Virus record (IMG/VR): IMGVR_UViG_2778261161_000002
Reading direction: 5' to 3' (one strand)
DNA: 64,000 bases
Source of the DNA: a virus
Taxonomy: Duplodnaviria > Heunggongvirae > Uroviricota > Caudoviricetes
The notes under the pieces: model-generated
Database searches by the model: none
What the model saw: the letters and a program-made list of their open reading frames with translations, nothing else
Told to the model about the DNA's origin: nothing
Translations under genes and position numbers: made by a program
Shown here: piece by piece, positions 26,236 to 38,205 of the stretch
Layout: each line of letters opens with the position of its first letter
Position numbering within the stretch: the first letter of the stretch is position 1

Positions 26236-26628
26236 ATGGAACAAATCAGCAGCGCAGAAATTGCGGATATCATGATCAGGGCTGACTGCTATCTGACAGT
26301 CACTGAAATTACCACTCTCGCCAAAGAAAAATACCCTCATCTCCATGTTTCACGAGTAAGTGTAACTAACATCATTCGTCATTTTGTTCGTTCAAGCAGG
26401 GCAATCTGTGAGCTGGATGATCGTGTGTATCCACGAAAATACTGGCTACATGGTCTGAACGGATATCAGTTCAAGGTGCGCGGGCGCACGCCTGAATACG
26501 GTAGCTTACTGGTTAAAAACTGTAGCAGGAAATCAGTCGAACAGGCGCGAAAAGAGCAACGAGAGCTGGTGGACATGGCGAATAAGCTGTGGAATGCCGC
26601 CGTTAAAAAGCGTGGTGTTGCTTTATGA
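26236..26628 (+). CDS. lpa: Lpa-like late promoter activator (positional)
   Basis: 130 aa basic protein overlapping the start of pacA, as gene 10/lpa does in P1. Confidence 0.45.
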   Translation: MEQISSAEIADIMIRADCYLTVTEITTLAKEKYPHLHVSRVSVTNIIRHFVRSSRAICELDDRVYPRKYWLHGLNGYQFKVRGRTPEYGSLLVKNCSRKSVEQARKEQRELVDMANKLWNAAVKKRGVAL

Positions 26629-27989
26629 GTCTGGTTAATTGGGAGGAGCACCGCGCCCGCTTTATAGCGTTGCGTGAAGAAAAAGGGATCACTGTAAAGG
26701 AATACTGTGAGGAGCATGGCCTTAGCTTCAATACAGCCAGAAAGCATCTCAATATGAAAAAAAATGAGGTGCGGTCGCAGGTAAAGACAACAAAAAAAAG
26801 CACCAAATCACCTGAAAAAAAACGGGCGGGAAGAGCAACAAAAAAGCTGGAAGAGGGCGCAGAAAAAACAAAATTTACAGAAATTGACAATTCGCAGGGT
26901 GCAGGTTCTTTCCGAAGTATGCCAAGAAAGAAAACTCCGGATCATGAAAGTAATACCAATAATAACAATGAGATAAAAGAATCTGTCAGGAGATCATTGC
27001 GCGAAAAAATGGCGAAAATGATCCCCGAAGAAGATAAAAGCGCCCCAAAAATTGAGGGATCTTCAGCAATGATCCCTGGCGGTGCTGTGCAACGTGCCAC
27101 ATTGCCCACTACGAATGTGGCTCGCGACATGATGAAGAACGGCGCAGAAGAACACCTGCGGTTAGCAATTCAAATGGCGCAAGAGCGCGCACTTCAGTAT
27201 CAAAGCATTGTTGATCAGGAGGCCGAACGTCTACAGGCGGAAATAGACGCCTTGGGCGATAAAGAGCCAGAAGGAATGCACCCTGGGCAGCGCCTTCTCG
27301 GTCTAATCAGTGACGCGGCCTACTACATGAATGATTTTATCAGTAGGTTGGCAGCTATATATCAGTCCGAACAAAAGCTGCGACAGGGGGATGAAAAGCT
27401 TCGTCAGAGCGCTCGCCAGCAAGCATTCAAAGAGGCTGAGGCCAGAGAAAAACTCGAATTAGCACGCCTACAGGCCGAACAGCGTGGCAAAGAGATTGAA
27501 TATCGCATTGGCGCTGACGCACGCGCAGCCAGAGTTATCGCCGCCGCTATACGTATGCGTGAGCGCGAGGAACTGGATGATATCGGTGTTGCTGAATACA
27601 TCGAGCGCCAGGGGGTCAGCGTCCCGGCTATCCTCGCGGCGCGCGCGGCGAAAGCTATCACTCTTCTCGAACCACCTGTTTCTGACGTCAATGATGTTGA
27701 TGATGAACAGCTGGACAAAGAGGCAAGGGAGTTTGCGACGCTTCAGGCTAACCATCCGCAATGGCTGGCAGAGCGCCGGGCGGATGTGGCAACCATTGTT
27801 GAAGAATTGGGGTGCGGAGATTACGACCGCAATGGCGAGCGTAAAGCTGGAGAATTCGAGGCCAACGACGAAGAGCTGGATATTGACCCTTCGGCAACGG
27901 CTGAAATTTACGGTGATTATGATGCATCTGATGCAGGGTATGACGCCGGAGATGATGATATCGCGATAGAACCGCCGGAGGATGATTAA
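26625..27989 (+). CDS. pacA: terminase small subunit-like (PacA-like)
   Basis: 454 aa, N-terminal HTH-like region, charged centre, acidic tail; immediately precedes the large terminase. Confidence 0.55.
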   Translation: MSLVNWEEHRARFIALREEKGITVKEYCEEHGLSFNTARKHLNMKKNEVRSQVKTTKKSTKSPEKKRAGRATKKLEEGAEKTKFTEIDNSQGAGSFRSMPRKKTPDHESNTNNNNEIKESVRRSLREKMAKMIPEEDKSAPKIEGSSAMIPGGAVQRATLPTTNVARDMMKNGAEEHLRLAIQMAQERALQYQSIVDQEAERLQAEIDALGDKEPEGMHPGQRLLGLISDAAYYMNDFISRLAAIYQSEQKLRQGDEKLRQSARQQAFKEAEAREKLELARLQAEQRGKEIEYRIGADARAARVIAAAIRMREREELDDIGVAEYIERQGVSVPAILAARAAKAITLLEPPVSDVNDVDDEQLDKEAREFATLQANHPQWLAERRADVATIVEELGCGDYDRNGERKAGEFEANDEELDIDPSATAEIYGDYDASDAGYDAGDDDIAIEPPEDD

Positions 27990-29497
27990 TGGCTGGAGGG
28001 CGCAAGATTAAATGCGTCACCAGCGATCCACGCTGGCGCGATATGGTAATCAAATACCGCTACAACTTTACCCAGGCTGTTGTCGATATTTTTGGGATGT
28101 TCCCCTCCCACCAGCAGCAGCAGATCATTCAGTCCGTGCAGGAAACGGGGAGTAGGACGACCGTCACGTCCGGACACGGAACGGGGAAGTCGTCCCTTAC
28201 CGCGATGTTGCTGTTGATTTTCATGATCCTGTTCCCCGATGCCCGTGTCATCATTGTTGCTAACAAGATAGGCCAGGTAAAAACAGGCGTATTCAAATAC
28301 GTTAAACAGTATTGGGCGAATGCAGTTAAGCGTCATGGGTGGTTGCAGACCTATTTTGTCCTCTCTGACACCATGTTTTATGAGCGCTCCCGTAAGGGGA
28401 TTTGGGAAGTTCTCTGCAAAGGTTATCGACTCGGCAACGAAGAAGCGCTGGCGGGGGAACACGCGGCACATTTGCTTCTAATTCTGGATGAAGCATCTGG
28501 TATATCTGATAAGGCGATCGGCGTAATGACCGGTGCTCTTACTGAAGAAGATAACCGGATGTTGATGCTATCCCAGCCAACAAGGCCAAGTGGTTATTTT
28601 TACGATTCGCACCATTCTCAAGCAAAAACCCCAGACAACCCGAAAGGGATCTGGACAGCAATTGTTCTTAACTCGGAAGAATCACCGTTCGTCACACCAC
28701 AATTCATCAAGCAGAAGCTTCTGGAATATGGGGGGCGCGATTCTATTGAGTACATGGTCAAGGTGCTTGGTCAGTTCCCACGAGAAATTAACGGCTATTT
28801 GCTTGGTCGTGATGAATGCGATCGCGCTGCTCGCCGCAAGGTGCTGTTGGAGAAAAACTGGGGATGGGTGGCAACGGCTGACGTTGGTAATGGGCGAGAT
28901 AAGTCGGTCCTCAACATCTGCAAGGTATCTGGTCACAGGGATAAGCGGCGCGTTGTTAACTTTAAGGTAATGGAGATGCCTGGCACTATGGACCCATTGG
29001 CCTTTGCTGACTTCATATATAACGAATGTACGCCGGAAAAATACCCGAATATAACAATCGCGGTTGATGCTGATGGTTTTGGTTCTGATACGTGTGCGCA
29101 GTTGGTGCGTCGTGGTGCGAACCCGGTACGTATTCGGTGGGGAAAACCCATGTTTGCGAACAAAGACAGGGAGCGATTTGTTAATCAGCGTGCCTACGCA
29201 AATATTATGGCGCGAGATGCCATAAAGTCAGGGCGTATGCGGATAGACAGTGACCCTAAAACGGCAGAGCAAGCGTCAAAAATCCCCTTTTTACTGAATG
29301 AAGAAGGGAAAATGGCGATGATGCGCAAAGAGCACATGCGGCAAAAGCTAAACATCAAATCGCCTGACCGATGGGATACCTACTGCTTCACTATGCTGGT
29401 GGACTATGTGCCTGCTAATGAAGATATTGGTGCCGAAATGGCAACTTTCCGAGATCAGGTTCTGGCGGATATCGAAATGCCGGATCTGGATATATAA
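27989..29497 (+). CDS. pacB: terminase large subunit (PacB-like)
   Basis: 502 aa; Walker A SGHGTGKS, Walker B LLLILDEASG, C-terminal nuclease-like region with VDADGFG. Confidence 0.8.
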   Translation: MAGGRKIKCVTSDPRWRDMVIKYRYNFTQAVVDIFGMFPSHQQQQIIQSVQETGSRTTVTSGHGTGKSSLTAMLLLIFMILFPDARVIIVANKIGQVKTGVFKYVKQYWANAVKRHGWLQTYFVLSDTMFYERSRKGIWEVLCKGYRLGNEEALAGEHAAHLLLILDEASGISDKAIGVMTGALTEEDNRMLMLSQPTRPSGYFYDSHHSQAKTPDNPKGIWTAIVLNSEESPFVTPQFIKQKLLEYGGRDSIEYMVKVLGQFPREINGYLLGRDECDRAARRKVLLEKNWGWVATADVGNGRDKSVLNICKVSGHRDKRRVVNFKVMEMPGTMDPLAFADFIYNECTPEKYPNITIAVDADGFGSDTCAQLVRRGANPVRIRWGKPMFANKDRERFVNQRAYANIMARDAIKSGRMRIDSDPKTAEQASKIPFLLNEEGKMAMMRKEHMRQKLNIKSPDRWDTYCFTMLVDYVPANEDIGAEMATFRDQVLADIEMPDLDI

Positions 29498-30771: not shown

Positions 30772-30805
30772 ATAACTTTAAATAATTGGCATTATTTAAA
30801 GTTAG
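30772..30805. other. rox-type recombination target site
   Basis: TAACTTTAAATAAT-TGGC-ATTATTTAAAGTTA; arms and (reverse-complemented) spacer match the rox site of phage D6 as recalled. Confidence 0.8.
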
Positions 30806-30956
30806 GCTATAATCATGTGTAGATGAACAGTGTTGACATCACTGAAAATACGTGCCTCGAATCAAAGGCTTGTATTTTGAAAATTAACTTATAGCTACCC
30901 TGTCATTTTTATATTTTTCGCGTAGCGTCATCTGTATATAGAGGTGTAATAGTTTC

Positions 30957-31985
30957 ATGAGTGAATTAATTATCTCTGGCAGTTCCGGTGGTTTTCTGCG
31001 CAACATTGGCAAAGAGTACCAGGAAGCCGCAGAAAACTTTATGCGGTTCATGAATGACCAGGGGGCTTATGCGCCGAATACTCTGCGCGACCTCCGGTTG
31101 GTGTTTCATTCCTGGGCGCGCTGGTGTCACGCTCGCCAGCTTGCCTGGTTTCCGATCTCACCAGAAATGGCCCGCGAGTATTTTCTTCAGCTGCATGATG
31201 CCGATCTGGCTTCGACCACCATTGATAAGCACTACGCCATGCTGAACATGCTGCTTTCGCATTGTGGCCTTCCGCCACTTTCGGATGATAAAAGTGTTTC
31301 TCTGGCTATGCGGCGCATCCGGCGCGAAGCGGCAACTGAAAAAGGCGAACGAACAGGCCAGGCTATACCGCTTCGGTGGGACGATCTGAAACTGCTCGAC
31401 GTCCTGTTGTCCAGGTCAGAACGGCTGGTGGACCTGCGCAACCTGGCTTTTCTCTTTGTTGCATACAATACGCTGATGCGTATGTCGGAAATATCGCGTA
31501 TTCGTGTAGGTGATCTGGACCAAACAGGTGACACTGTCACGCTACATATTTCACACACGAAGACAATAACGACCGCCGCCGGGCTTGATAAGGTGCTTTC
31601 CCGTCGCACTACCGCTGTGCTGAATGACTGGCTGGATGTTTCCGGGCTTCGCGAGCATCCTGACGCTGTGCTGTTCCCGCCGATACACCGTAGCAATAAG
31701 GCCAGGATCACGATAACGCCCCTTACTGCACCTGCAATGGAGAAAATATTCAGCGACGCCTGGGTGTTGCTGAATAAAAGAGATGCTACGCCAAACAAAG
31801 GAAGATACCGGACGTGGACCGGGCATAGTGCACGCGTCGGGGCCGCTATTGATATGGCTGAAAAGCAGGTGTCTATGGTGGAGATCATGCAGGAAGGAAC
31901 CTGGAAGAAACCGGAAACACTTATGCGGTATCTTCGCCGTGGCGGCGTGTCTGTGGGGGCTAATAGCCGCCTGATGGATTTGTAA
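30957..31985 (+). CDS. dre: Cre-family tyrosine recombinase (Dre-like)
   Basis: 342 aa; colinear with P1 Cre (WFP..PE, NLAFL..AYNTL.R..EI.RIRV.D, HSARVGAA.DMA); rox site 150 bp upstream. Confidence 0.9.
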   Translation: MSELIISGSSGGFLRNIGKEYQEAAENFMRFMNDQGAYAPNTLRDLRLVFHSWARWCHARQLAWFPISPEMAREYFLQLHDADLASTTIDKHYAMLNMLLSHCGLPPLSDDKSVSLAMRRIRREAATEKGERTGQAIPLRWDDLKLLDVLLSRSERLVDLRNLAFLFVAYNTLMRMSEISRIRVGDLDQTGDTVTLHISHTKTITTAAGLDKVLSRRTTAVLNDWLDVSGLREHPDAVLFPPIHRSNKARITITPLTAPAMEKIFSDAWVLLNKRDATPNKGRYRTWTGHSARVGAAIDMAEKQVSMVEIMQEGTWKKPETLMRYLRRGGVSVGANSRLMDL

Positions 31986-32058: not shown

Positions 32059-32403
32059 TTGCAGAGTCAAATCACGGAATCAAGACGCTTCAAGGTGGAT
32101 GGTTACACCGTAACCTTCGCCGCTGGTGTTAAGAACAGTCATGCTGTCGTTGTGTTCGGCATCATGACCGGGCTTGAGGCCGTCCCTGTGTTTACCCTCG
32201 AAAAAAACTGGCGAAATCTGGAGGAAGCAGAAAGCTACGTCCGGAAAGTAACCATCATTGCCGCCGAAAAACTCCTGGCCCACTATCAGGAAAATTATCG
32301 CACTATGGTCGAGAAGATTAATCTCGCTTTCACTCGCCCCACTACCGGCTTTATTGCACCGGATACTAATGCAGGTCGATATCCTGCAAGGGGGCGTCGG
32401 TGA
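32059..32403 (+). CDS. hypothetical protein
   Basis: 114 aa ORF, first gene of operon. Confidence 0.45.
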   Translation: MQSQITESRRFKVDGYTVTFAAGVKNSHAVVVFGIMTGLEAVPVFTLEKNWRNLEEAESYVRKVTIIAAEKLLAHYQENYRTMVEKINLAFTRPTTGFIAPDTNAGRYPARGRR

Positions 32404-32876
32404 AAACTTATTACCCATCTCTGAATTGTTACCCGTCTTCCTATCCAGAATTATCCGGGAAGCTGTTAGCTCTATTAGCTAAAGCACCTACGGAATGGTT
32501 TAAGCCAGTCGTTATCAATCCACACTTCCTGGATTACGGAACTGTTCGCACTCGTAACGAACTCAAAAACCTACTGGCGCATGGATTCATTCGACACCGT
32601 GCCGGGAAAGGCTATCAGTTAGCGATTGCGCCAGAAGAGGCCGTGCGGCTATTCGCATATCGTGACAGCCAGACAAAAGCTCGGGTAATAGCTCAAATAC
32701 TTCATAACGGCAGCACCTATGCCCGCCAGTTTGGCGGCGACACGTCGCAGTTCTTGCGGGCGGTGCGATCGCTGGAGGAGCAAGGAGTTATTGAAAGTTC
32801 CTGTCTTCCTGTTCCTACCGTTCCACATATCAAACGTCGGGTTTACACCTTCACGCAGAGAGCTAAAAAACAATGA
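32400..32876 (+). CDS. hypothetical protein, possible winged-helix
   Basis: 158 aa; overlapping start/stop. Confidence 0.4.
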   Translation: MKTYYPSLNCYPSSYPELSGKLLALLAKAPTEWFKPVVINPHFLDYGTVRTRNELKNLLAHGFIRHRAGKGYQLAIAPEEAVRLFAYRDSQTKARVIAQILHNGSTYARQFGGDTSQFLRAVRSLEEQGVIESSCLPVPTVPHIKRRVYTFTQRAKKQ

Positions 32877-33367
32877 TTTACGTAAAAGTGAAACGCCTAC
32901 ATCCGGCAGCAAAACTTCCAGCTTATGCCACCTCCGGATCGGCGGCGATGGATTTTGAGGCTGTTGAAATAAAACCATGCGTCGATAGCAATGGTGCAAT
33001 TTCCTCAAGCTGGTGGGTGTACACCGGACTGGCTATGGAGATCCCGCCCGGCTGGTGTCTGAAACTCTATCCGCGCTCCGGATTGGGCTGCAAAAAACAT
33101 ACTCGCCTGGCTAACTGCGTAGGAATTATCGACTCCGATTATCGCGGTGAAATCATGGCAAAACTGATTACTGATCCCGGCGGGGAAGGCGTTTGTCTCA
33201 AGCCTGGAATGGCTGTCATGCAAGGCATTTTTGAGCGTGTTGAACAAGTCTCACTAGTCGAGGTTGAGGAACTCAACGAAACGGAACGTGGTGCTGGTGG
33301 CTTTGGTAGCACATCGGAAGACCACTTTGAAATCAAGCGCACACCGCTTCAGTACGCAAAGTTTTAA
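32873..33367 (+). CDS. dut: dUTPase
   Basis: 164 aa; GIIDSDYRGE and other dUTPase motifs. Confidence 0.8.
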   Translation: MIYVKVKRLHPAAKLPAYATSGSAAMDFEAVEIKPCVDSNGAISSSWWVYTGLAMEIPPGWCLKLYPRSGLGCKKHTRLANCVGIIDSDYRGEIMAKLITDPGGEGVCLKPGMAVMQGIFERVEQVSLVEVEELNETERGAGGFGSTSEDHFEIKRTPLQYAKF

Positions 33368-33381
33368 GCAGAGGAAAGGCT

Positions 33382-34083
33382 ATGAATTACATGACAACGA
33401 AAGAGCTTTTTAAGTTCCTTCCCAAATACAAAGCTCACAAAAACGTTAGTGCATCGAAAATCAAAAATGTTGTTATTTTCGGAGTAACTGCTTCCCCACT
33501 TTGGGGCTGCATCGAACTCGTTGAACCAAAAGGGGCAACAGTTTGTGTTGACGCAATTTTTTTACAAAAACACCGACCAAAAACTGGCGGGTATCTGATC
33601 GTTTATGAAAACGGTTATCTGTTCTATGCCCCGGAGAAACCATTTGAGCAATGCTATGGCCTGGTTAACGACGCCTCCGAAAATGGGGTATCGCTCAGCA
33701 TTGAAGGTCACAATGGGGTGACATTCATTACAGCCAGGGACGTAACTATTTCTGCTGGCGGTATCGCTACTCTACAAGAAGAAATCGACCTTGAAGCAGC
33801 CGACTTTTCTGACGCGCTGATGTGGCTGAAGGATGGCAAGAAAGTTGCTCGACGCGGGTGGAACGGCGAAAACCAATTCTGCTGGCTGGTTCCTGACAAA
33901 CAGGGTGCTTCAAGACTAACCCCTATAAAACATGCCGCAAACGGAGAGCTTGAAATCAATTTCGACTCTCCTCTTGCTCCTTATGGTGCGCATTTCGTTT
34001 TGAAAAATGCACAAGGTGTAGTTGTTCCATGGATGCCTTCTGTAGGTGACCTGCTGGCATGTGACTGGTTTGTAGTGGAGTGA
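33382..34083 (+). CDS. protein with C-terminal DUF2829 (Tad2-like) domain
   Basis: 233 aa; FSDALMWLKDGKKVARRGWNG ... VVPWMPSVGDLLACDWFVVE fits DUF2829 as recalled. Confidence 0.55.
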   Translation: MNYMTTKELFKFLPKYKAHKNVSASKIKNVVIFGVTASPLWGCIELVEPKGATVCVDAIFLQKHRPKTGGYLIVYENGYLFYAPEKPFEQCYGLVNDASENGVSLSIEGHNGVTFITARDVTISAGGIATLQEEIDLEAADFSDALMWLKDGKKVARRGWNGENQFCWLVPDKQGASRLTPIKHAANGELEINFDSPLAPYGAHFVLKNAQGVVVPWMPSVGDLLACDWFVVE

Positions 34084-34089
34084 TTTAAC

Positions 34090-34896
34090 GTGGAAAATAC
34101 TAAAGCAATTCAATACCGCTTGCGTAATGGCCTGCTGGTGGCTGTTAACGCCGACATGTCACTGCCGTTTGACACGATTGAACGCACCATAATGACGTAT
34201 CTCGGCTTTAATGAAGAACTGAATGAAGAGCATGGCGTAGCTATATGGAGTGATGCAGACAGCGGCGTTCGTCGTTACATCACCGCCAGGGGCAAAGACT
34301 ACTCTCTGGAAGAACTGTTTGCCCTTGCGCAGTCTTTCGAATGTGTAGCATTAGACCTGTTTAATGATCCTGCTATAGCGCAACGACTTATACGCGAGCT
34401 TGGGCTATCCGTTACACCAATTATCTTTAAAAATGGCAGCCTGACTGGCACATGGCGCGTAGAACGCATATCAAACTACCTTCCATATAACCGACAGTTA
34501 AATGGAGTAATCTCCGGCGTTAATCAGCCCGTAGCATGTGAAAATGTAAACCTGGTTGTCGCTGTTTTGGCAACCGCATGTCGTGTTATCGGTTTGGCTA
34601 AACAGGCATTTATTCATTTCCCAAATGGTGCAGAAGGTAGCGCAGAGATTATCGCGTGTGATTTCGAATTTACCTGGATGCTACGCGAATATCTGGACCA
34701 AACAGTATTCCGTGCCGAAGAACTGGATATGTATATCACGTCAACGATTCCAGACGATGTGCGAGCTGAAGCAATCGCTACAGCCAGGGCGAAATGCCGT
34801 GCGGCGATTGCAGAACAGGCCAAAGAAGAACAGTCCGATGAAGTCGCGGCAGATGTGGAGGCAGAGGTAGCGGAGGATGCTGATGCTGACGCCTAA
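34090..34896 (+). CDS. hypothetical protein with acidic C-terminal tail
   Basis: 268 aa; C-terminus EEQSDEVAADVEAEVAEDADADA; overlaps downstream terminase-like gene. Confidence 0.45.
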   Translation: MENTKAIQYRLRNGLLVAVNADMSLPFDTIERTIMTYLGFNEELNEEHGVAIWSDADSGVRRYITARGKDYSLEELFALAQSFECVALDLFNDPAIAQRLIRELGLSVTPIIFKNGSLTGTWRVERISNYLPYNRQLNGVISGVNQPVACENVNLVVAVLATACRVIGLAKQAFIHFPNGAEGSAEIIACDFEFTWMLREYLDQTVFRAEELDMYITSTIPDDVRAEAIATARAKCRAAIAEQAKEEQSDEVAADVEAEVAEDADADA

Positions 34897-35983
34897 AAAC
34901 ATCACCGAATTACCAGAGTGGAGAGAGCTGGTAAGCAAATATAGCCATGACTGGGCATTAGCAGCAGAAGAGTTGATGGGTGTTAAGTTAACCCACCAGC
35001 AAAAGCTAATTGTTGAGGCGATTCAACAAAAAGGTTCAGCAGTCAGCGTCACCACTCCTGAAGGGATAGGCCAAAAGACGGTTATCGCTATAATTAGTAT
35101 TCTTTATACAATCCTGATGCCTGAGTCTAAAACGGTTATTGTTTCCCCAAAGTTCTATAATTGTCGCAGGCAAGTTATCCAATACATAAGTACGTATTGG
35201 GATAGAGTCAGTAACAGAATCCCATTGCTGGGAGAATATTTTAAAGTCGATGGAAACGGCATCAATCATCGTTACCGGGAATATTGGGGCTGCGAAATTA
35301 AGCCATATCACCGAAATTATGAGGAAGGTTTCGGTGGATATTATGCTGAACATCTTTTAATCATTGTTACGGAGGCGGCTCTTGCTGGCGATCGGCTATT
35401 CAGCATGTTAAGAGCATCGTTAGTAAGTGACGATTCACGTATACTTTTAATGTCCGCTCCTTCAGAGGAGGAGCATGGACACTTTTACGATTCCCATCAT
35501 GGTCGTGCTAAATCAGAAGAAAATCCATGTGGTATTTATACAGCCATCAAGCTGAACGCAGAAGATACCCCCATTATTTCTCAAGGTTATCTTGATAACA
35601 TTGCAGAAATATATGGTGGTAAAAACAGCGATTACTACCGTCGTATGATTCTTGGTGAGTTTCCTGGTATTAGGGAGGCTGTTCTTGAATCAGATATGCC
35701 GAAGACAATGCGCTTTTCGATGCCTGATGGTAGTGAATGGATAATGCCATTACGAGTGATAGCCCGGCATCATGCACAGCACCACGCCAAAAAACATGGC
35801 GTTACAACATTGGAGTGGTTGAAATCGCACACCATTCCACTCTTCACTGCAGATCACAATGCTATCGTTGAGTGGGCAAAAACAATTCCGTGGGAGAATG
35901 TTGCTGAATACGCCCACATGCTAAAACCGCCGAAAGACAGGCAAGAAATTAGCTGGCTGACAGCAGAAAAAATCATTGAGTGA
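34877..35983 (+). CDS. terminase large-subunit ATPase-domain paralogue lacking the nuclease domain
   Basis: 368 aa; aligns with PacB ATPase region (GIGQKT vs GTGKSS; shared FYDSHH); Walker B reads LLIIVTEA (D to T); C-terminal 100 aa unrelated to PacB nuclease. Confidence 0.6.
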   Translation: MLMLTPKNITELPEWRELVSKYSHDWALAAEELMGVKLTHQQKLIVEAIQQKGSAVSVTTPEGIGQKTVIAIISILYTILMPESKTVIVSPKFYNCRRQVIQYISTYWDRVSNRIPLLGEYFKVDGNGINHRYREYWGCEIKPYHRNYEEGFGGYYAEHLLIIVTEAALAGDRLFSMLRASLVSDDSRILLMSAPSEEEHGHFYDSHHGRAKSEENPCGIYTAIKLNAEDTPIISQGYLDNIAEIYGGKNSDYYRRMILGEFPGIREAVLESDMPKTMRFSMPDGSEWIMPLRVIARHHAQHHAKKHGVTTLEWLKSHTIPLFTADHNAIVEWAKTIPWENVAEYAHMLKPPKDRQEISWLTAEKIIE

Positions 35984-36018
35984 TAGTAGGAAGCCCGCCT
36001 GGTTGAGCGGGCTTCTTT

Positions 36019-36399
36019 TCAAATATTGGAACCATATAGTTCACGTAGTTTTTCCGCTACTGAAGATACGGGGATTTCACCAGTTGCAGCCCCCACCGCA
36101 AGTTCCACCAGCACGGGAGAATCATATACCTGTATACCGTTACGGCGTAGAAATAGCAGCGCACTGTTTAGCGCGGTACGCTTATTGGCATCATTGAATA
36201 TATGCCCTCTCGCAGTAGCCACCAGGTAGGTTGCGGAGACTTCGAAAAGGTCGGTGATCTCTTCGTAGGCAACTCTGGCCTGAACTCTCCCGATAATGGC
36301 CTCTGCCCTACCCGGATCTGACATTCCCGGCAGGCCGCCGTAGCGGCTTATATTCGCATCATGAAGCGCAATAAGTTCTTCCGGTGATATATGCCTCAT
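36019..36399 (-). CDS. doc: Doc toxin (Fic-fold kinase)
   Basis: 126 aa nearly identical to P1 Doc as recalled. Confidence 0.9.
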
Positions 36400-36620
36400 T
36401 ATCGGTTAACCAGTTCCTTGTTGGTGGAGTCCAGGGTGTCAAACAGGGATGCAAATTCAGCATCCAGCGCCGCCTTTTTGTAGGCTTCGAAAGTAGCCTT
36501 GCTGACAATTACTGCTGGTTCACGGCCTCTGCGGGTGATTTCAACCTCTTCCCCGGCTTCAACATTGTTGAGCAATTCAGAAAGGTTGCCGCGCGCGGTA
36601 CGGAAGTTAATGGACTGCAT
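36399..36620 (-). CDS. phd: Phd antitoxin
   Basis: [15 protein letters not shown]... matches P1 Phd; overlaps doc. Confidence 0.9.
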
Positions 36621-36628
36621 AAACACCT

Positions 36629-37169: not shown

Positions 37170-37454
37170 TTAACTCCTACATTCAGGGCAAGAGTTCCCT
37201 TCCGCAAAATAGGGGAAACTGCTATCAAGCTCATCACACCATCTGCGATGGTCGTAGCACCAAAACGCCTCCCACGGTGCACGGAAATACTTCATCCACC
37301 AGGACACTCGATCAGGTATATCTGCTGGTGGCAGCTCTTCTGGCAATAATTTGCCTGATAATTCCCTTTCCGCCCGCGCCAGCATTCCTTTTAGACTCGC
37401 ATTCTCTTTTTCAAGAATCTCTATGCGCGCCTGTAACTCAGCTTTCGTTGGCAT
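37170..37454 (-). CDS. hypothetical protein with coiled coil and Cys-rich C-terminus
   Basis: start set to internal Met to avoid long overlap with upstream gene. Confidence 0.35.
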   Translation of the reverse strand: MPTKAELQARIEILEKENASLKGMLARAERELSGKLLPEELPPADIPDRVSWWMKYFRAPWEAFWCYDHRRWCDELDSSFPYFAEGNSCPECRS

Positions 37455-38205
37455 GGTCCGCCTCATGTTTATCAGCCACCAGCGGCAATAAAGCCTTCGC
37501 CATTTCATGAACCAACATGGCATCAATGACGCCTAGCGTATGGCCCGGCTTAATCTTTAATGCGGCCTCAAGATAGCCTCTTTCCAGAGTGGTTTTTACG
37601 CTTTTCCTGGGCGCTTGTTGGGAACTATCCGGAAAATCCGGATGGTTCCCAGCCTCATAAGCTACCCGCAACCAGTGCATGAATGTTTCCGCAGACACAC
37701 AACCGCAGTCCACATCGATTTTCCCGCGTTGCTGTTCCAGCCATTGCTCAAAATCTAACTTGTAAGCCTTACTTTCAGACTTAACTTTCTGAGACGCTAT
37801 GCGAGCTGCTTCATACTGTTCACGAGTGACAACCGATGTAAACGCACTGCGATCAAGGTCACTGATATCGCAAATAATGCCATCAATGGAATAATTCTTT
37901 GATGATTGGTAATTTTTATGGCGCGTACCAAAAAGAACCGTAGCGCGACTACTACCTGGCATCGTAATGGATAGATGGCAAAAATCTTTTCCATCAGGCC
38001 ATCCACGCCCCTTAGATAATTCCTTCACTAACAAGTCAATCAGTGTCATAGCTTTACCATCCTTGCAAGGCGCTAAAGCTATTTTGGCAAGCTCCAATAC
38101 TTCATCTGCTGTGTATCCAGCACCGTGACCATACATTTCGATACGGGAAATAATATCTGAAATACGCTCTTTAGTGATTCTTGTCATAGTTTTATTTCCT
38201 TGCAT
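37438..38205 (-). CDS. hypothetical protein
   Basis: 255 aa; N-terminal about 40 aa paralogous to the N-terminus of 39254..40174. Confidence 0.45.
   Translation of the reverse strand: MQGNKTMTRITKERISDIISRIEMYGHGAGYTADEVLELAKIALAPCKDGKAMTLIDLLVKELSKGRGWPDGKDFCHLSITMPGSSRATVLFGTRHKNYQSSKNYSIDGIICDISDLDRSAFTSVVTREQYEAARIASQKVKSESKAYKLDFEQWLEQQRGKIDVDCGCVSAETFMHWLRVAYEAGNHPDFPDSSQQAPRKSVKTTLERGYLEAALKIKPGHTLGVIDAMLVHEMAKALLPLVADKHEADHANES

What the first reader, a model, noticed from the sequence alone, without database searches (positions are those of the whole stretch)
34090..35983. Degenerate terminase large-subunit paralogue with no nuclease domain, paired with an acidic-tailed protein
34877..35983 aligns with the PacB ATPase domain (shared FYDSHH block and Walker A), but its Walker B reads VTEA instead of LDEA and the C-terminal nuclease domain is replaced by an unrelated 100 aa. 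The upstream gene (268 aa) has a poly-acidic tail. An ATPase-defective terminase copy in an early operon could act as a packaging decoy or interference factor, or be a repurposed NTPase.
Basis: partly seen in the sequence, partly recalled or inferred. Interest (0 to 1): 0.6.

Follow-up and report, generated by a model that had tools for sequence, protein, structure and literature searches.

The report
Catalytically dead terminase copy in phage-plasmid
A D6/P1-type phage-plasmid carries, besides its real DNA-packaging enzyme, an extra copy that keeps the motor's fold but has lost its ATP-site residues and its nuclease half; it belongs to an undescribed, fast-diversifying accessory family that may act by mimicking the packaging enzyme.

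Summary
The ORF at 34883-35983 (probable start; 34877 is the first ATG) matches the ATPase half of the window's own PacB (27989-29497): 34% identity, E 3e-52. Its predicted fold is that of a terminase large-subunit (TerL) ATPase domain.

One correction: Walker A is not intact. The lysine is lost (GIGQKT against GTGKSS). Walker B reads TE instead of DE. The nuclease domain is absent. In its place is an unrelated ~100-aa domain that occurs as a free-standing small protein in at least 152 phage loci.

The degeneracy is family-wide. Among 150 representatives, every TerL of 430 aa or more keeps GK[ST] and [DE]E. About 20 short proteins without a nuclease have lost both motifs.

The gene is under purifying selection and is accessory: D6 and reference P1 lack it. 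Its central ATPase-like segment exists as discrete, very divergent alleles that do not track the element's own PacA, PacB or IsaA.

It is the last gene of the dre operon, which also encodes a dUTPase, a Tad2-like protein and IsaA. The upstream gene is a P1 IsaA homologue. Its acidic tail is not conserved, and the pairing is not obligatory.

Function is untested. I favour a non-catalytic TerL mimic used in phage-host or phage-phage conflict. I found no paper describing the family.

The parts
34883..35983 (+). Pseudo-terminase: PacB (TerL) paralogue of 366 aa (368 aa from the first ATG at 34877). It is a full-length member of phrog_5902.
   Evidence: BLASTP to window PacB E 3e-52. phrog_5902 E 1.7e-133 and phrog_2 TerL E 1.6e-10. 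AlphaFold2 pLDDT 82. Foldseek best hits are TerL ATPase domains of P74-26, T4, Sf6, D6E and HK97. GGAGG lies 6 nt before the ATG at 34883.
34883..35677 (+). TerL ATPase-like domain (aa 1-265), catalytically degenerate. The segment aa ~60-180 is hypervariable between alleles.
   Evidence: dN/dS 0.46-0.48 between close alleles, against ~0.1 in neighbouring genes. Only 10 plasmids share the central segment at DNA level, although 44 share the C-domain at 95% or more.
35057..35080 (+). Walker A remnant PEGIGQKT. The lysine position holds Q.
   Evidence: Across the clade this position holds Q, H, R, T, E, M, C or I.
35354..35377 (+). Walker B remnant LLIIVTEA (Asp replaced by Thr; Glu kept in this allele).
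   Evidence: Across the clade the DE pair reads TE, AE, MD, VD, VN, LN, IN, PN, PD, PQ, LH or TD.
35483..35500 (+). FYDSHH. This is the core of the block G-x-FYDSHH...NP-G...AI-L-E-SP (aa 201-232), which is conserved in both the pseudo-TerL and true PacB.
   Evidence: Invariant columns in A1. Third-codon identity to pacB is only 32% in this block, so this is not gene conversion.
35678..35983 (+). C-terminal ~100-aa domain of unknown function. It is unrelated to the nuclease domain and occurs elsewhere as a free-standing small phage protein.
   Evidence: hhalign against the PacB C-terminal half gives probability 0.3%. Free-standing representatives are P0077, P0141, P0143, P0165 and P0168. 152 relatives were found in IMG/VR, mostly 98-120 aa ORFs. 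It matches phrog_17928 positions 400-511. There is no Pfam or PDB match. dN/dS is ~0.1.
34090..34896 (+). IsaA homologue (268 aa, phrog_2326) with a non-conserved acidic tail. Its 3' end carries the ribosome-binding site and start codon of the next gene.
33382..34083 (+). Tad2-like (DUF2829) protein, in the same operon.
   Evidence: Pfam PF11195, E 2.7e-21.
32873..33367 (+). dUTPase, in the same operon.
   Evidence: Pfam PF00692, E 1.7e-14.
32059..32876 (+). Two small genes of unknown function (homologues of D6 orf117 and orf116; phrog_1968 and phrog_6669), in the same operon.
30957..31985 (+). Dre-type tyrosine recombinase, first gene of the operon. The rox site lies at 30772-30803.
30786..30813 (+). 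The only strong sigma-70-like promoter match upstream of the operon (TTGGCA-16-TATAAT).
   Evidence: This is a consensus match only.
35990..36020 (.). GC-rich hairpin followed by a T-run, between the convergent pseudo-TerL and doc genes. Probable end of the operon.
27989..29497 (+). Comparator: the true PacB (TerL, 502 aa) with intact GHGTGKSS and LLLILDEAS motifs and a nuclease half. pacA lies at 26625-27989.

Best explanation
**Shown.** The gene encodes a pseudo-terminase. It is an old duplicate of the PacB-type large terminase subunit that keeps the ATPase-domain fold, the N-terminal helices, the adenine (Q) motif, motif III and the FYDSHH block. It has lost the Walker A lysine, the Walker B aspartate and the whole nuclease domain. 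In this lineage it is fused to a small, widespread phage domain. It cannot power or cut DNA during packaging. It is accessory, is kept by purifying selection, and exists as discrete, very divergent alleles of its central segment that do not follow the element's own PacA, PacB or IsaA.

**Inferred.** It works by binding, as a mimic of the terminase ATPase domain, in a conflict between the phage-plasmid and its host or competitors. My preferred version is that it is made from the dre/Tad2-like accessory operon before the late terminase appears. It would then occupy or mislead factors that recognise the TerL ATPase domain. The Avs1-3 and Upx sensors are the known examples. On this reading, loss of the ATP-site residues is what stops the protein from triggering those sensors itself.
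For: **Identity**
- Homology and fold.
- Family-wide loss of both catalytic motifs, always together with loss of the nuclease domain.
- The core pseudo clade is monophyletic with no active TerL inside it (NJ tree).
- Selection: dN/dS 0.2-0.5 in the N-domain and ~0.1 in the C-domain, and all copies are intact ORFs.
- The FYDSHH block is kept at protein level, with 32% third-codon identity to pacB.

**Accessory status**
- Absent from D6 and reference P1.
- The C-domain is found in 44 plasmids at 95% or more, against 115 with D6-type PacB, and in 113 at 60-80%, against ~600 with P1-type PacB.

**Conflict-type pattern**
- Window against CP115379: PacA 99.8%, PacB 100%, C1 100%, IsaA 98.9%, yet pseudo-TerL N-domain 76% and C-domain 98%.
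- CP115379 against CP056699 shows the reverse pattern.
- Alleles fall into discrete classes.

**Context**
- It is co-oriented and tightly packed with a Tad2-like gene and a dUTPase; an orphan N6/N4 methyltransferase takes the dUTPase slot in relatives.
- In P1-type relatives it lies between ssb and the dar antirestriction operon.
- The isaA region is a recognised hypervariable region of P1-like elements (PMC9603915, PMC6906374).

**Literature**
- The TerL ATPase domain alone activates EcAvs2 and Upx.
- In the EcAvs2 complex, a bridging ATP held by EcAvs2 hydrogen-bonds to the ATP and Mg2+ in the terminase active site.
- T4 vs.8, a free-standing TerL-ATPase-like protein with intact Walker motifs, triggers EcAvs2 (PMC13601566).
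Against: - There is no experimental or structural evidence that it binds any sensor, PacA, PacB or the portal.
- A protein that cannot hold ATP-Mg may simply not bind Avs2 or Avs3. It would then be invisible rather than a decoy.
- Upx is reported to recognise an unfolded ATPase core and to tolerate Walker B mutations, so the dead motifs would not hide the protein from Upx.
- The role of the C-terminal domain is unexplained. The free-standing copies sit in replication and recombination neighbourhoods, which fits a DNA-metabolism role at least as well.
- PADLOC and Pfam give nothing.
- Timing of expression is inferred, not measured.
- The NJ tree has no support values, and two pseudo members (P0057, P0117) fall elsewhere.
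Confidence: 0.35

Rival explanations
1. Packaging interference or superinfection exclusion. The resident phage-plasmid makes a dead TerL ATPase domain. This binds the small subunit (PacA), or joins the PacB ring, of incoming or co-resident P1/D6-type phages and stalls their packaging. The allelic diversity would track the diversity of competitors' pacases.
For: - It keeps the N-terminal helices and the FYDSHH block, the regions most conserved with PacB. Whether these form subunit or PacA contacts is inference only.
- It lies in hypervariable accessory regions of P1-like elements that also hold res-mod and sim (PMC9603915).
- PacA is itself variable, 74-99% among D6-type plasmids.
- There is a precedent for a prophage-encoded block of packaging through the terminase: TERi in Listeria (bioRxiv 10.1101/2025.02.27.640495).
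Against: - It needs a way to spare the element's own pacase. Two very different alleles coexist with identical PacA and PacB, so specificity against self is unexplained.
- No self-immunity gene is evident.
- No homology to TerI was tested, as I had no sequence.
- It lacks the C-terminal half of TerL. If that half is what docks on the portal (from my recollection of the TerL literature, not checked here), the protein could not reach the motor.
Confidence: 0.25
2. DNA replication or recombination accessory factor. The dead ATPase fold serves as a DNA- or protein-binding scaffold. The C-terminal domain tethers it to replication or recombination proteins during early development.
For: - Neighbours in other lineages: immediately after a DnaB/Ban-like helicase (L005, L052), after ssb in P1-type relatives, and after Ref, the RecA-dependent nuclease (L094).
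- Free-standing C-domain genes lie among DnaB, lambda P, Gam, endonuclease VII, HNH, DUF551 and Ead/Ea22 genes.
- The C-domain is also fused to a DUF1351-like protein.
Against: - These neighbourhoods are generic early or accessory regions and vary between loci. No single partner gene recurs.
- Hypervariable discrete alleles among otherwise identical elements are unusual for a housekeeping replication factor.
- The gene is dispensable in many relatives.
Confidence: 0.15
3. Regulator of the element's own pacase. It would hold PacA or PacB inactive so that pac is not cut in the plasmid prophage or too early, or it would act as an assembly chaperone.
For: - It is a paralogue of the resident PacB and retains the blocks most conserved with it.
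- It is transcribed from a different, probably earlier or constitutive, operon 5.4 kb downstream of pacAB.
Against: - There is no co-variation with the element's own PacA or PacB.
- It is absent from D6, reference P1 and most relatives, which package normally.
Confidence: 0.1
4. A decaying duplicate with no function.
For: - The catalytic motifs are lost.
- dN/dS is raised in the N-domain (0.46-0.48 between close alleles).
Against: - Intact ORFs occur in all alleles and in lineages down to 36-38% identity.
- dN/dS is well below 1.
- Strongly conserved blocks remain, with saturated synonymous sites.
- The start is translationally coupled to isaA.
- The cluster sizes add up to several hundred database sequences.
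Confidence: 0.03

Closest known systems
PacB, the large terminase subunit of P1/D6 (TerL family)
   Same: - Homologous ATPase domain: 34% identity, E 3e-52.
- Same fold.
- Shared N-terminal helices, Q motif (HQQ), motif III (S-x-P) and the FYDSHH...NP-G block.
   Different: - Walker A lysine and Walker B aspartate are lost.
- There is no RNase H-like nuclease domain.
- It is not next to pacA or the portal gene.
- It is accessory rather than universal.
- It carries an unrelated C-terminal domain.
T4 vs.8, a free-standing TerL-ATPase-like protein that activates EcAvs2 (PMC13601566)
   Same: - A second, nuclease-less copy of the terminase ATPase fold, encoded outside the packaging module.
- Function unknown.
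   Different: - vs.8 keeps Walker A (GGRQSGKS) and Walker B (IIDE).
- No detectable sequence relationship to this family: hhalign probability 0.1%.
- It has no C-terminal extra domain.
TERi (TerI) of Listeria prophages, and the packaging-interference proteins of satellites (SaPI Ppi and PICI Rpp, the last two from my own knowledge)
   Same: These are proteins encoded by a prophage or mobile element that act on another phage's terminase rather than on its DNA. This is a possible functional analogy.
   Different: - They are small proteins that are not reported to derive from TerL.
- They target the small subunit.
- No homology was tested, and the function of the present gene is untested.
P1 IsaA (gp017, 'IS1-associated'), for the upstream gene
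   Same: - 48% identity over 84% of the length.
- Same phrog_2326.
- In P1-type variants it is likewise followed by the pseudo-TerL.
   Different: - It sits at a different place in the genome here: after the Tad2-like gene in the dre operon, rather than after ssb.
- Reference P1 has IS1 and an unrelated isaB downstream instead.

Membership tests
Terminase large subunit (TerL/PacB) | ATPase domain homologous to TerL and with the TerL fold | tested here: met
   BLASTP E 3e-52. phrog_2 E 1.6e-10. Foldseek to P74-26, T4, Sf6, D6E and HK97 TerL gives probability 1.0 and target-normalised TM-score (TMt) up to 0.68.
Terminase large subunit (TerL/PacB) | Walker A with the conserved lysine (G-K-[ST]) | tested here: not met
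   GIGQKT against GTGKSS. All 150-representative TerLs of 430 aa or more have GK[ST]; the pseudo clade does not.
Terminase large subunit (TerL/PacB) | Walker B hhhh[DE]E | tested here: not met
   IIVTEA. Across the clade the pair reads TE, AE, MD, VD, LN, IN and others.
Terminase large subunit (TerL/PacB) | C-terminal RNase H-like nuclease domain | tested here: not met
   The protein ends ~100 aa after the ATPase domain. hhalign against the PacB C-terminal half gives probability 0.3%. The model shows a hairpin plus helices.
Terminase large subunit (TerL/PacB) | Encoded in the packaging module next to the small subunit, and present in all relatives | tested here: not met
   It lies 5.4 kb from pacAB in the dre operon. 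It is absent from D6 and reference P1. It is present in a minority of plasmids that carry PacB.
phrog_5902 (unknown function) | Full-length profile match | tested here: met
   E 1.7e-133, residues 7-367 on profile positions 3-358 of 359.
T4 vs.8-like terminase ATPase paralogues | Sequence homology to vs.8 and intact Walker motifs | tested here: not met
   hhalign probability 0.1%. vs.8 has GKS and DE; this protein does not.
Known anti-phage defence systems (PADLOC-DB 2.0) | Match to any defence-protein profile | tested here: not met
   No family matched either protein at E up to 1.
Terminase-targeting interference proteins (TerI, Ppi, Rpp) | Binds a terminase subunit and blocks or redirects packaging | not testable with these tools
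   This needs binding and packaging assays. I held no reference sequences.
P1 IsaA / phrog_2326 (upstream gene) | Full-length homology to P1 IsaA | tested here: met
   phrog_2326 E 8.8e-137. tblastn to P1 isaA gives 48% identity over 84%.

The most novel reading that the evidence does not exclude
The pseudo-terminase is an immune-evasion mimic. It is a TerL ATPase-domain look-alike made early, and it occupies or misdirects bacterial sensors that detect phage terminase (Avs1-3- or Upx-type). It lacks the ATP-bound active site that at least some of those sensors contact. Its central segment diversifies in an arms race with the sensors. A close variant of the idea is a poison subunit directed at rival phages' pacases.
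Probability: 0.25. Interest if true: 0.85.

Novelty: new variant of a known kind. Interest (0 to 1): 0.6.

Why it matters
The large terminase subunit is a molecular pattern sensed by several bacterial immune receptors (Avs1-3, Upx). It is also the target of packaging-interference systems.

A family of terminase-derived pseudoenzymes would be a new type of conflict protein built by duplicating a core virion-assembly enzyme. The features that point this way are:
- purifying selection on the gene;
- cassette-like allelic diversity in the central segment;
- co-transcription, probably, with a Tad2-like anti-defence gene;
- presence in common E. coli and Salmonella phage-plasmids.

Simple assays can test the idea. 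The work also defines a widespread ~100-aa phage domain with no family description.

If the protein turns out to be a replication accessory factor instead, it would still be a clear example of a packaging ATPase fold put to a non-catalytic use.

Tried and rejected
- **P1 IsaB.** I asked whether P1 IsaB is a remnant of this gene. It is not.
- **Deeper alignments.** The word-index homologue search gave only 7 and 13 proteins for the paralogue, even with a 19-sequence profile. The structure prediction therefore used a 9-row alignment.
- **Identity of the C-terminal domain.** Pfam, a PDB profile search and hhalign against the PacB nuclease half gave nothing. Both Foldseek searches were dominated by the ATPase domain and say nothing about the C-domain fold.
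- **Locus searches that failed.** The search for related loci with the mixed alignments had no stretch conserved enough to search with. P0026 gave no viral locus.
- **C1 operator.** The P1 C1-operator consensus has no match anywhere in the window, so C1 control of the operon could not be assessed.
- **Gene conversion with pacB.** Rejected as the cause of the conserved block: the longest exact DNA match is 11 nt.
- **Relationship to T4 vs.8.** Rejected.
- **Defence-system profiles.** None matched.
- **Literature.** I found no description of this family.
Full report
**What the window is**

The region is 100% identical to E. coli plasmid pRHB39-C21_3 (CP057047.1), a 93-kb non-mobilizable element. 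The upstream gene is 97.5% identical at DNA level to phage D6. The recombinase at 30957-31985 is preceded by a rox site at 30772-30803, so this is a D6-type (Dre/rox) member of the P1 family of phage-plasmids.

The true packaging genes are pacA (26625-27989) and pacB (27989-29497). After them come the C1-type repressor gene (minus strand) and a run of co-oriented, abutting or overlapping genes:
- dre;
- two small unknown genes, 32059-32876;
- a dUTPase, 32873-33367;
- a Tad2-like/DUF2829 gene, 33382-34083 (Pfam 2.7e-21);
- the 268-aa gene, 34090-34896;
- the 366/368-aa gene, ending at 35983.

The only strong sigma-70-like match lies before dre (30786-30813). A GC-rich hairpin with a T-run (35990-36020) separates the last gene from the convergent doc/phd pair. 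That this is one operon is an inference from gene spacing.

**Check of the observation**

The downstream protein aligns with the N-terminal half of the window's PacB (34% identity, aa 7-263, E 3e-52). It also aligns with PacB of P1, P7, RCS47 and D6 (E 1e-44 to 1e-49).

The AlphaFold2 model (pLDDT 82) matches the TerL ATPase domains of P74-26, T4, Sf6, D6E and HK97 and viral terminases in BFVD.

Walker A is not intact: GIGQKT replaces GTGKSS, so the lysine position holds Q.

The last ~100 residues have no relation to the PacB nuclease half (hhalign probability 0.3%).

The probable start is the ATG at 34883. It has a GGAGG 6 nt upstream and lies inside the codons of the upstream protein's acidic tail.

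The upstream protein is a homologue of P1 IsaA (48% identity). P1 isaA is non-essential by CRISPRi (PMC10695390).

**The degeneracy is a family trait**

I aligned the window protein with database relatives at 88, 81, 65, 48 and 38% identity. The Walker A lysine position holds Q, Q, H, R, E or T. The Walker B pair reads TE, AE, MD, VD, IN or LN.

An exhaustive profile search of 1.8 billion representatives gave 2,593 hits. I extracted the motifs from the best 150:
- Every protein of 430 aa or more has GK[ST] and [DE]E, apart from one intein-containing TerL whose P-loop was not read cleanly and P0027 (next point).
- About 20 representatives have lost both motifs. All are short (230-366 aa). One is 444 aa with a different C-terminal domain (P0027). 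None has a nuclease domain.

The Q motif (HQQ), motif III (S-x-P) and the block G-x-FYDSHH...NP-G...AI-L-E-SP remain conserved in this clade. In this window the block shares only 32% third-codon identity with pacB, so it is held by selection on the protein and not by gene conversion.

In a neighbour-joining tree the 12 core pseudo members form one clade with no active TerL inside it. The tree has no support values, and two further pseudo members branch elsewhere. The closest active relatives are PacB-type terminases.

This is therefore an old, maintained pseudoenzyme lineage (phrog_5902), not a recent broken copy.

**Selection and population structure**

All copies examined are intact ORFs. 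Pairwise dN/dS values are as follows:

| Region | dN/dS |
|---|---|
| ATPase-like domain, close alleles | 0.46-0.48 |
| ATPase-like domain, distant alleles | 0.2-0.3 |
| C-terminal domain | ~0.1 |
| isaA | 0.06-0.18 |
| dut | ~0.1 |

The most striking result concerns co-variation:

| Comparison | PacA | PacB | C1 | IsaA | Pseudo-TerL N-domain | Pseudo-TerL C-domain |
|---|---|---|---|---|---|---|
| Window vs CP115379 | 99.8% | 100% | 100% | 98.9% | 76% | 98% |
| CP115379 vs CP056699 | 74% | 92% | 81% | 74% | 94% | 97% |

The divergence is concentrated in residues ~60-180, between the two dead motifs.

At DNA level only 10 plasmids share this central segment: 7 are identical and 3 are ~80% identical. 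By contrast, 44 plasmids share the C-domain at 95% or more. The gene therefore exists as discrete alleles in a conserved frame. These alleles reassort independently of the element's own pacase and of IsaA.

**Distribution**

The gene is accessory.
- D6 has IsaA followed by pdcA.
- Reference P1 has isaA, then IS1, then an unrelated isaB.
- P1 variants such as MH422554 have ssb, isaA, the pseudo-TerL, then hxr and the dar operon.
- Klebsiella and Enterobacter relatives have IsaA alone.
- A 38%-identical member follows a DnaB/Ban-like helicase, without IsaA.
- A 263-aa member without the C-domain follows Ref.

In PLSDB about 777 plasmids carry a PacB homologue, and 166 carry the C-domain. Of these, 44 are D6-type against 115 D6-type PacB records, and 113 are P1-type against roughly 600.

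The isaA region is one of the recognised hypervariable regions of P1-like elements (PMC9603915, PMC6906374).

**The C-terminal domain**

It occurs as a free-standing protein of ~100 aa. IMG/VR holds 152 confirmed relatives. Of the 80 best loci kept, nearly all carry it as a short ORF. One carries it on another pseudo-TerL, and one on a DUF1351-like protein.

Neighbouring genes are heterogeneous early-region genes: DnaB, lambda P, Gam, Lar, HNH, endonuclease VII, DUF551, Ead/Ea22 and integrase.

It has no Pfam family and no relative in the PDB by sequence. Its fold could not be placed, because both fold searches were dominated by the ATPase domain.

**IsaA**

The acidic tail is present in the E. 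coli and Klebsiella versions and absent from the Enterobacter versions. In this window it also encodes the ribosome-binding site and start codon of the next gene.

The adjacency of isaA and the pseudo-TerL in two lineages, at different genomic sites, suggests a loose module. Their independent occurrence and independent allele assortment argue against an obligate, co-evolving pair.

**Mechanism**

*Shown.* The protein has a TerL ATPase fold without the residues needed to hydrolyse ATP and without a nuclease. It therefore cannot act as a terminase. It is maintained by selection, it is accessory, and it has a variable core that is independent of the cognate pacase.

*Inferred.* It acts by binding, as a mimic of the terminase ATPase domain.

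I favour a conflict role (about 0.35) and, within that, evasion of terminase-sensing immunity. Four points lead me there:
- The gene is probably co-transcribed with a Tad2-like gene and, in relatives, with an orphan methyltransferase.
- In P1-type elements the pair follows ssb. In reference P1, ssb lies behind the C1-controlled operator Ossb, and the dar operon is next door.
- The TerL ATPase domain alone activates EcAvs2 and Upx, and a bridging ATP held by EcAvs2 hydrogen-bonds to the ATP and Mg2+ in the terminase active site.
- T4 vs.8, a free-standing ATPase-like paralogue with intact motifs, does trigger EcAvs2 (PMC13601566).

Losing the ATP site may thus be what makes such a protein tolerable or inhibitory.

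The main rival (0.25) is interference with the packaging of competing phages. TERi is a functional precedent.

A replication or recombination role (0.15) is suggested by the neighbours of the gene and of the free-standing C-domain.

Regulation of the element's own pacase (0.1) is disfavoured by the lack of co-variation and by the gene's dispensability.

None of these has been tested.

**Comparison with known families, and novelty**

It fails four of the five defining features of TerL and should not be annotated 'terminase large subunit', as some records do. It is unrelated in sequence to T4 vs.8 and matches no PADLOC profile. Four literature searches found no description of it.

I rate it a new variant of a known kind: a terminase-derived accessory paralogue, here a pseudoenzyme fused to a novel domain. 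I score interest at 0.6. The sequence facts are solid and unusual and the hypotheses can be tested directly, but no function has been demonstrated.

Noticed in passing
window 30772-30803 and 30957-31985: A perfect rox-type inverted repeat (TAACTTTAAATAAT-TGGC-ATTATTTAAAGTTA) lies upstream of the recombinase gene, so this element uses Dre/rox rather than Cre/lox. The only strong promoter-like match of the region (30786-30813) overlaps the site.
   Followed up: partly
window 33382-34083: The Tad2-like (DUF2829) protein is 233 aa here. It is 146 aa in D6 and 157-213 aa in Klebsiella and Enterobacter relatives. Its N-terminal extension varies, while the Tad2 domain (aa 141-232) is kept.
   Followed up: no
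L008/L009 2711-3868 (Enterobacter phage-plasmids): In these relatives the dUTPase slot of the recombinase operon is occupied by an orphan N6/N4 DNA methyltransferase. This fits the operon being a cargo site for anti-defence genes.
   Followed up: no
representatives P0053, P0058, P0069, P0074, P0091, P0096, P0123, P0157: Several PacB-like terminases carry a large insertion, intein-like (GHGC...HNTGK[ST]), inside the Walker A loop.
   Followed up: no
P0027 (444 aa): This is a pseudo-TerL with dead motifs fused to a different, unrelated ~180-aa C-terminal domain. The dead ATPase module has therefore been combined with more than one partner domain.
   Followed up: no
L061 3897-5312: The ~100-aa C-domain is fused here to a ~370-aa DUF1351-like N-terminal part, which is the phrog_17928 architecture. 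From memory, and not checked here, DUF1351 sits in phage recombination modules.
   Followed up: partly
window 34090-35983 compared with L010-L013: There is mosaicism within the two-gene module. NZ_AP027414 has the window's pseudo-TerL allele but an IsaA only 77% identical. NZ_CP115379 has the window's IsaA but a pseudo-TerL N-domain only 76% identical.
   Followed up: yes
L005 1869-2261: In the contig carrying the 38%-identical pseudo-TerL, a crAss001_48-related protein (PF21825, listed as 'Sequestin' in the precomputed table) and a Band_7 protein lie upstream, after a fused DNA methylase.
   Followed up: no
window 36019-36626 and 37170-37526: A doc/phd toxin-antitoxin pair lies convergent to the operon. 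The matching plasmid record also annotates a second gene as 'antitoxin PHD', at window ~37170-37454, downstream of humD.
   Followed up: no
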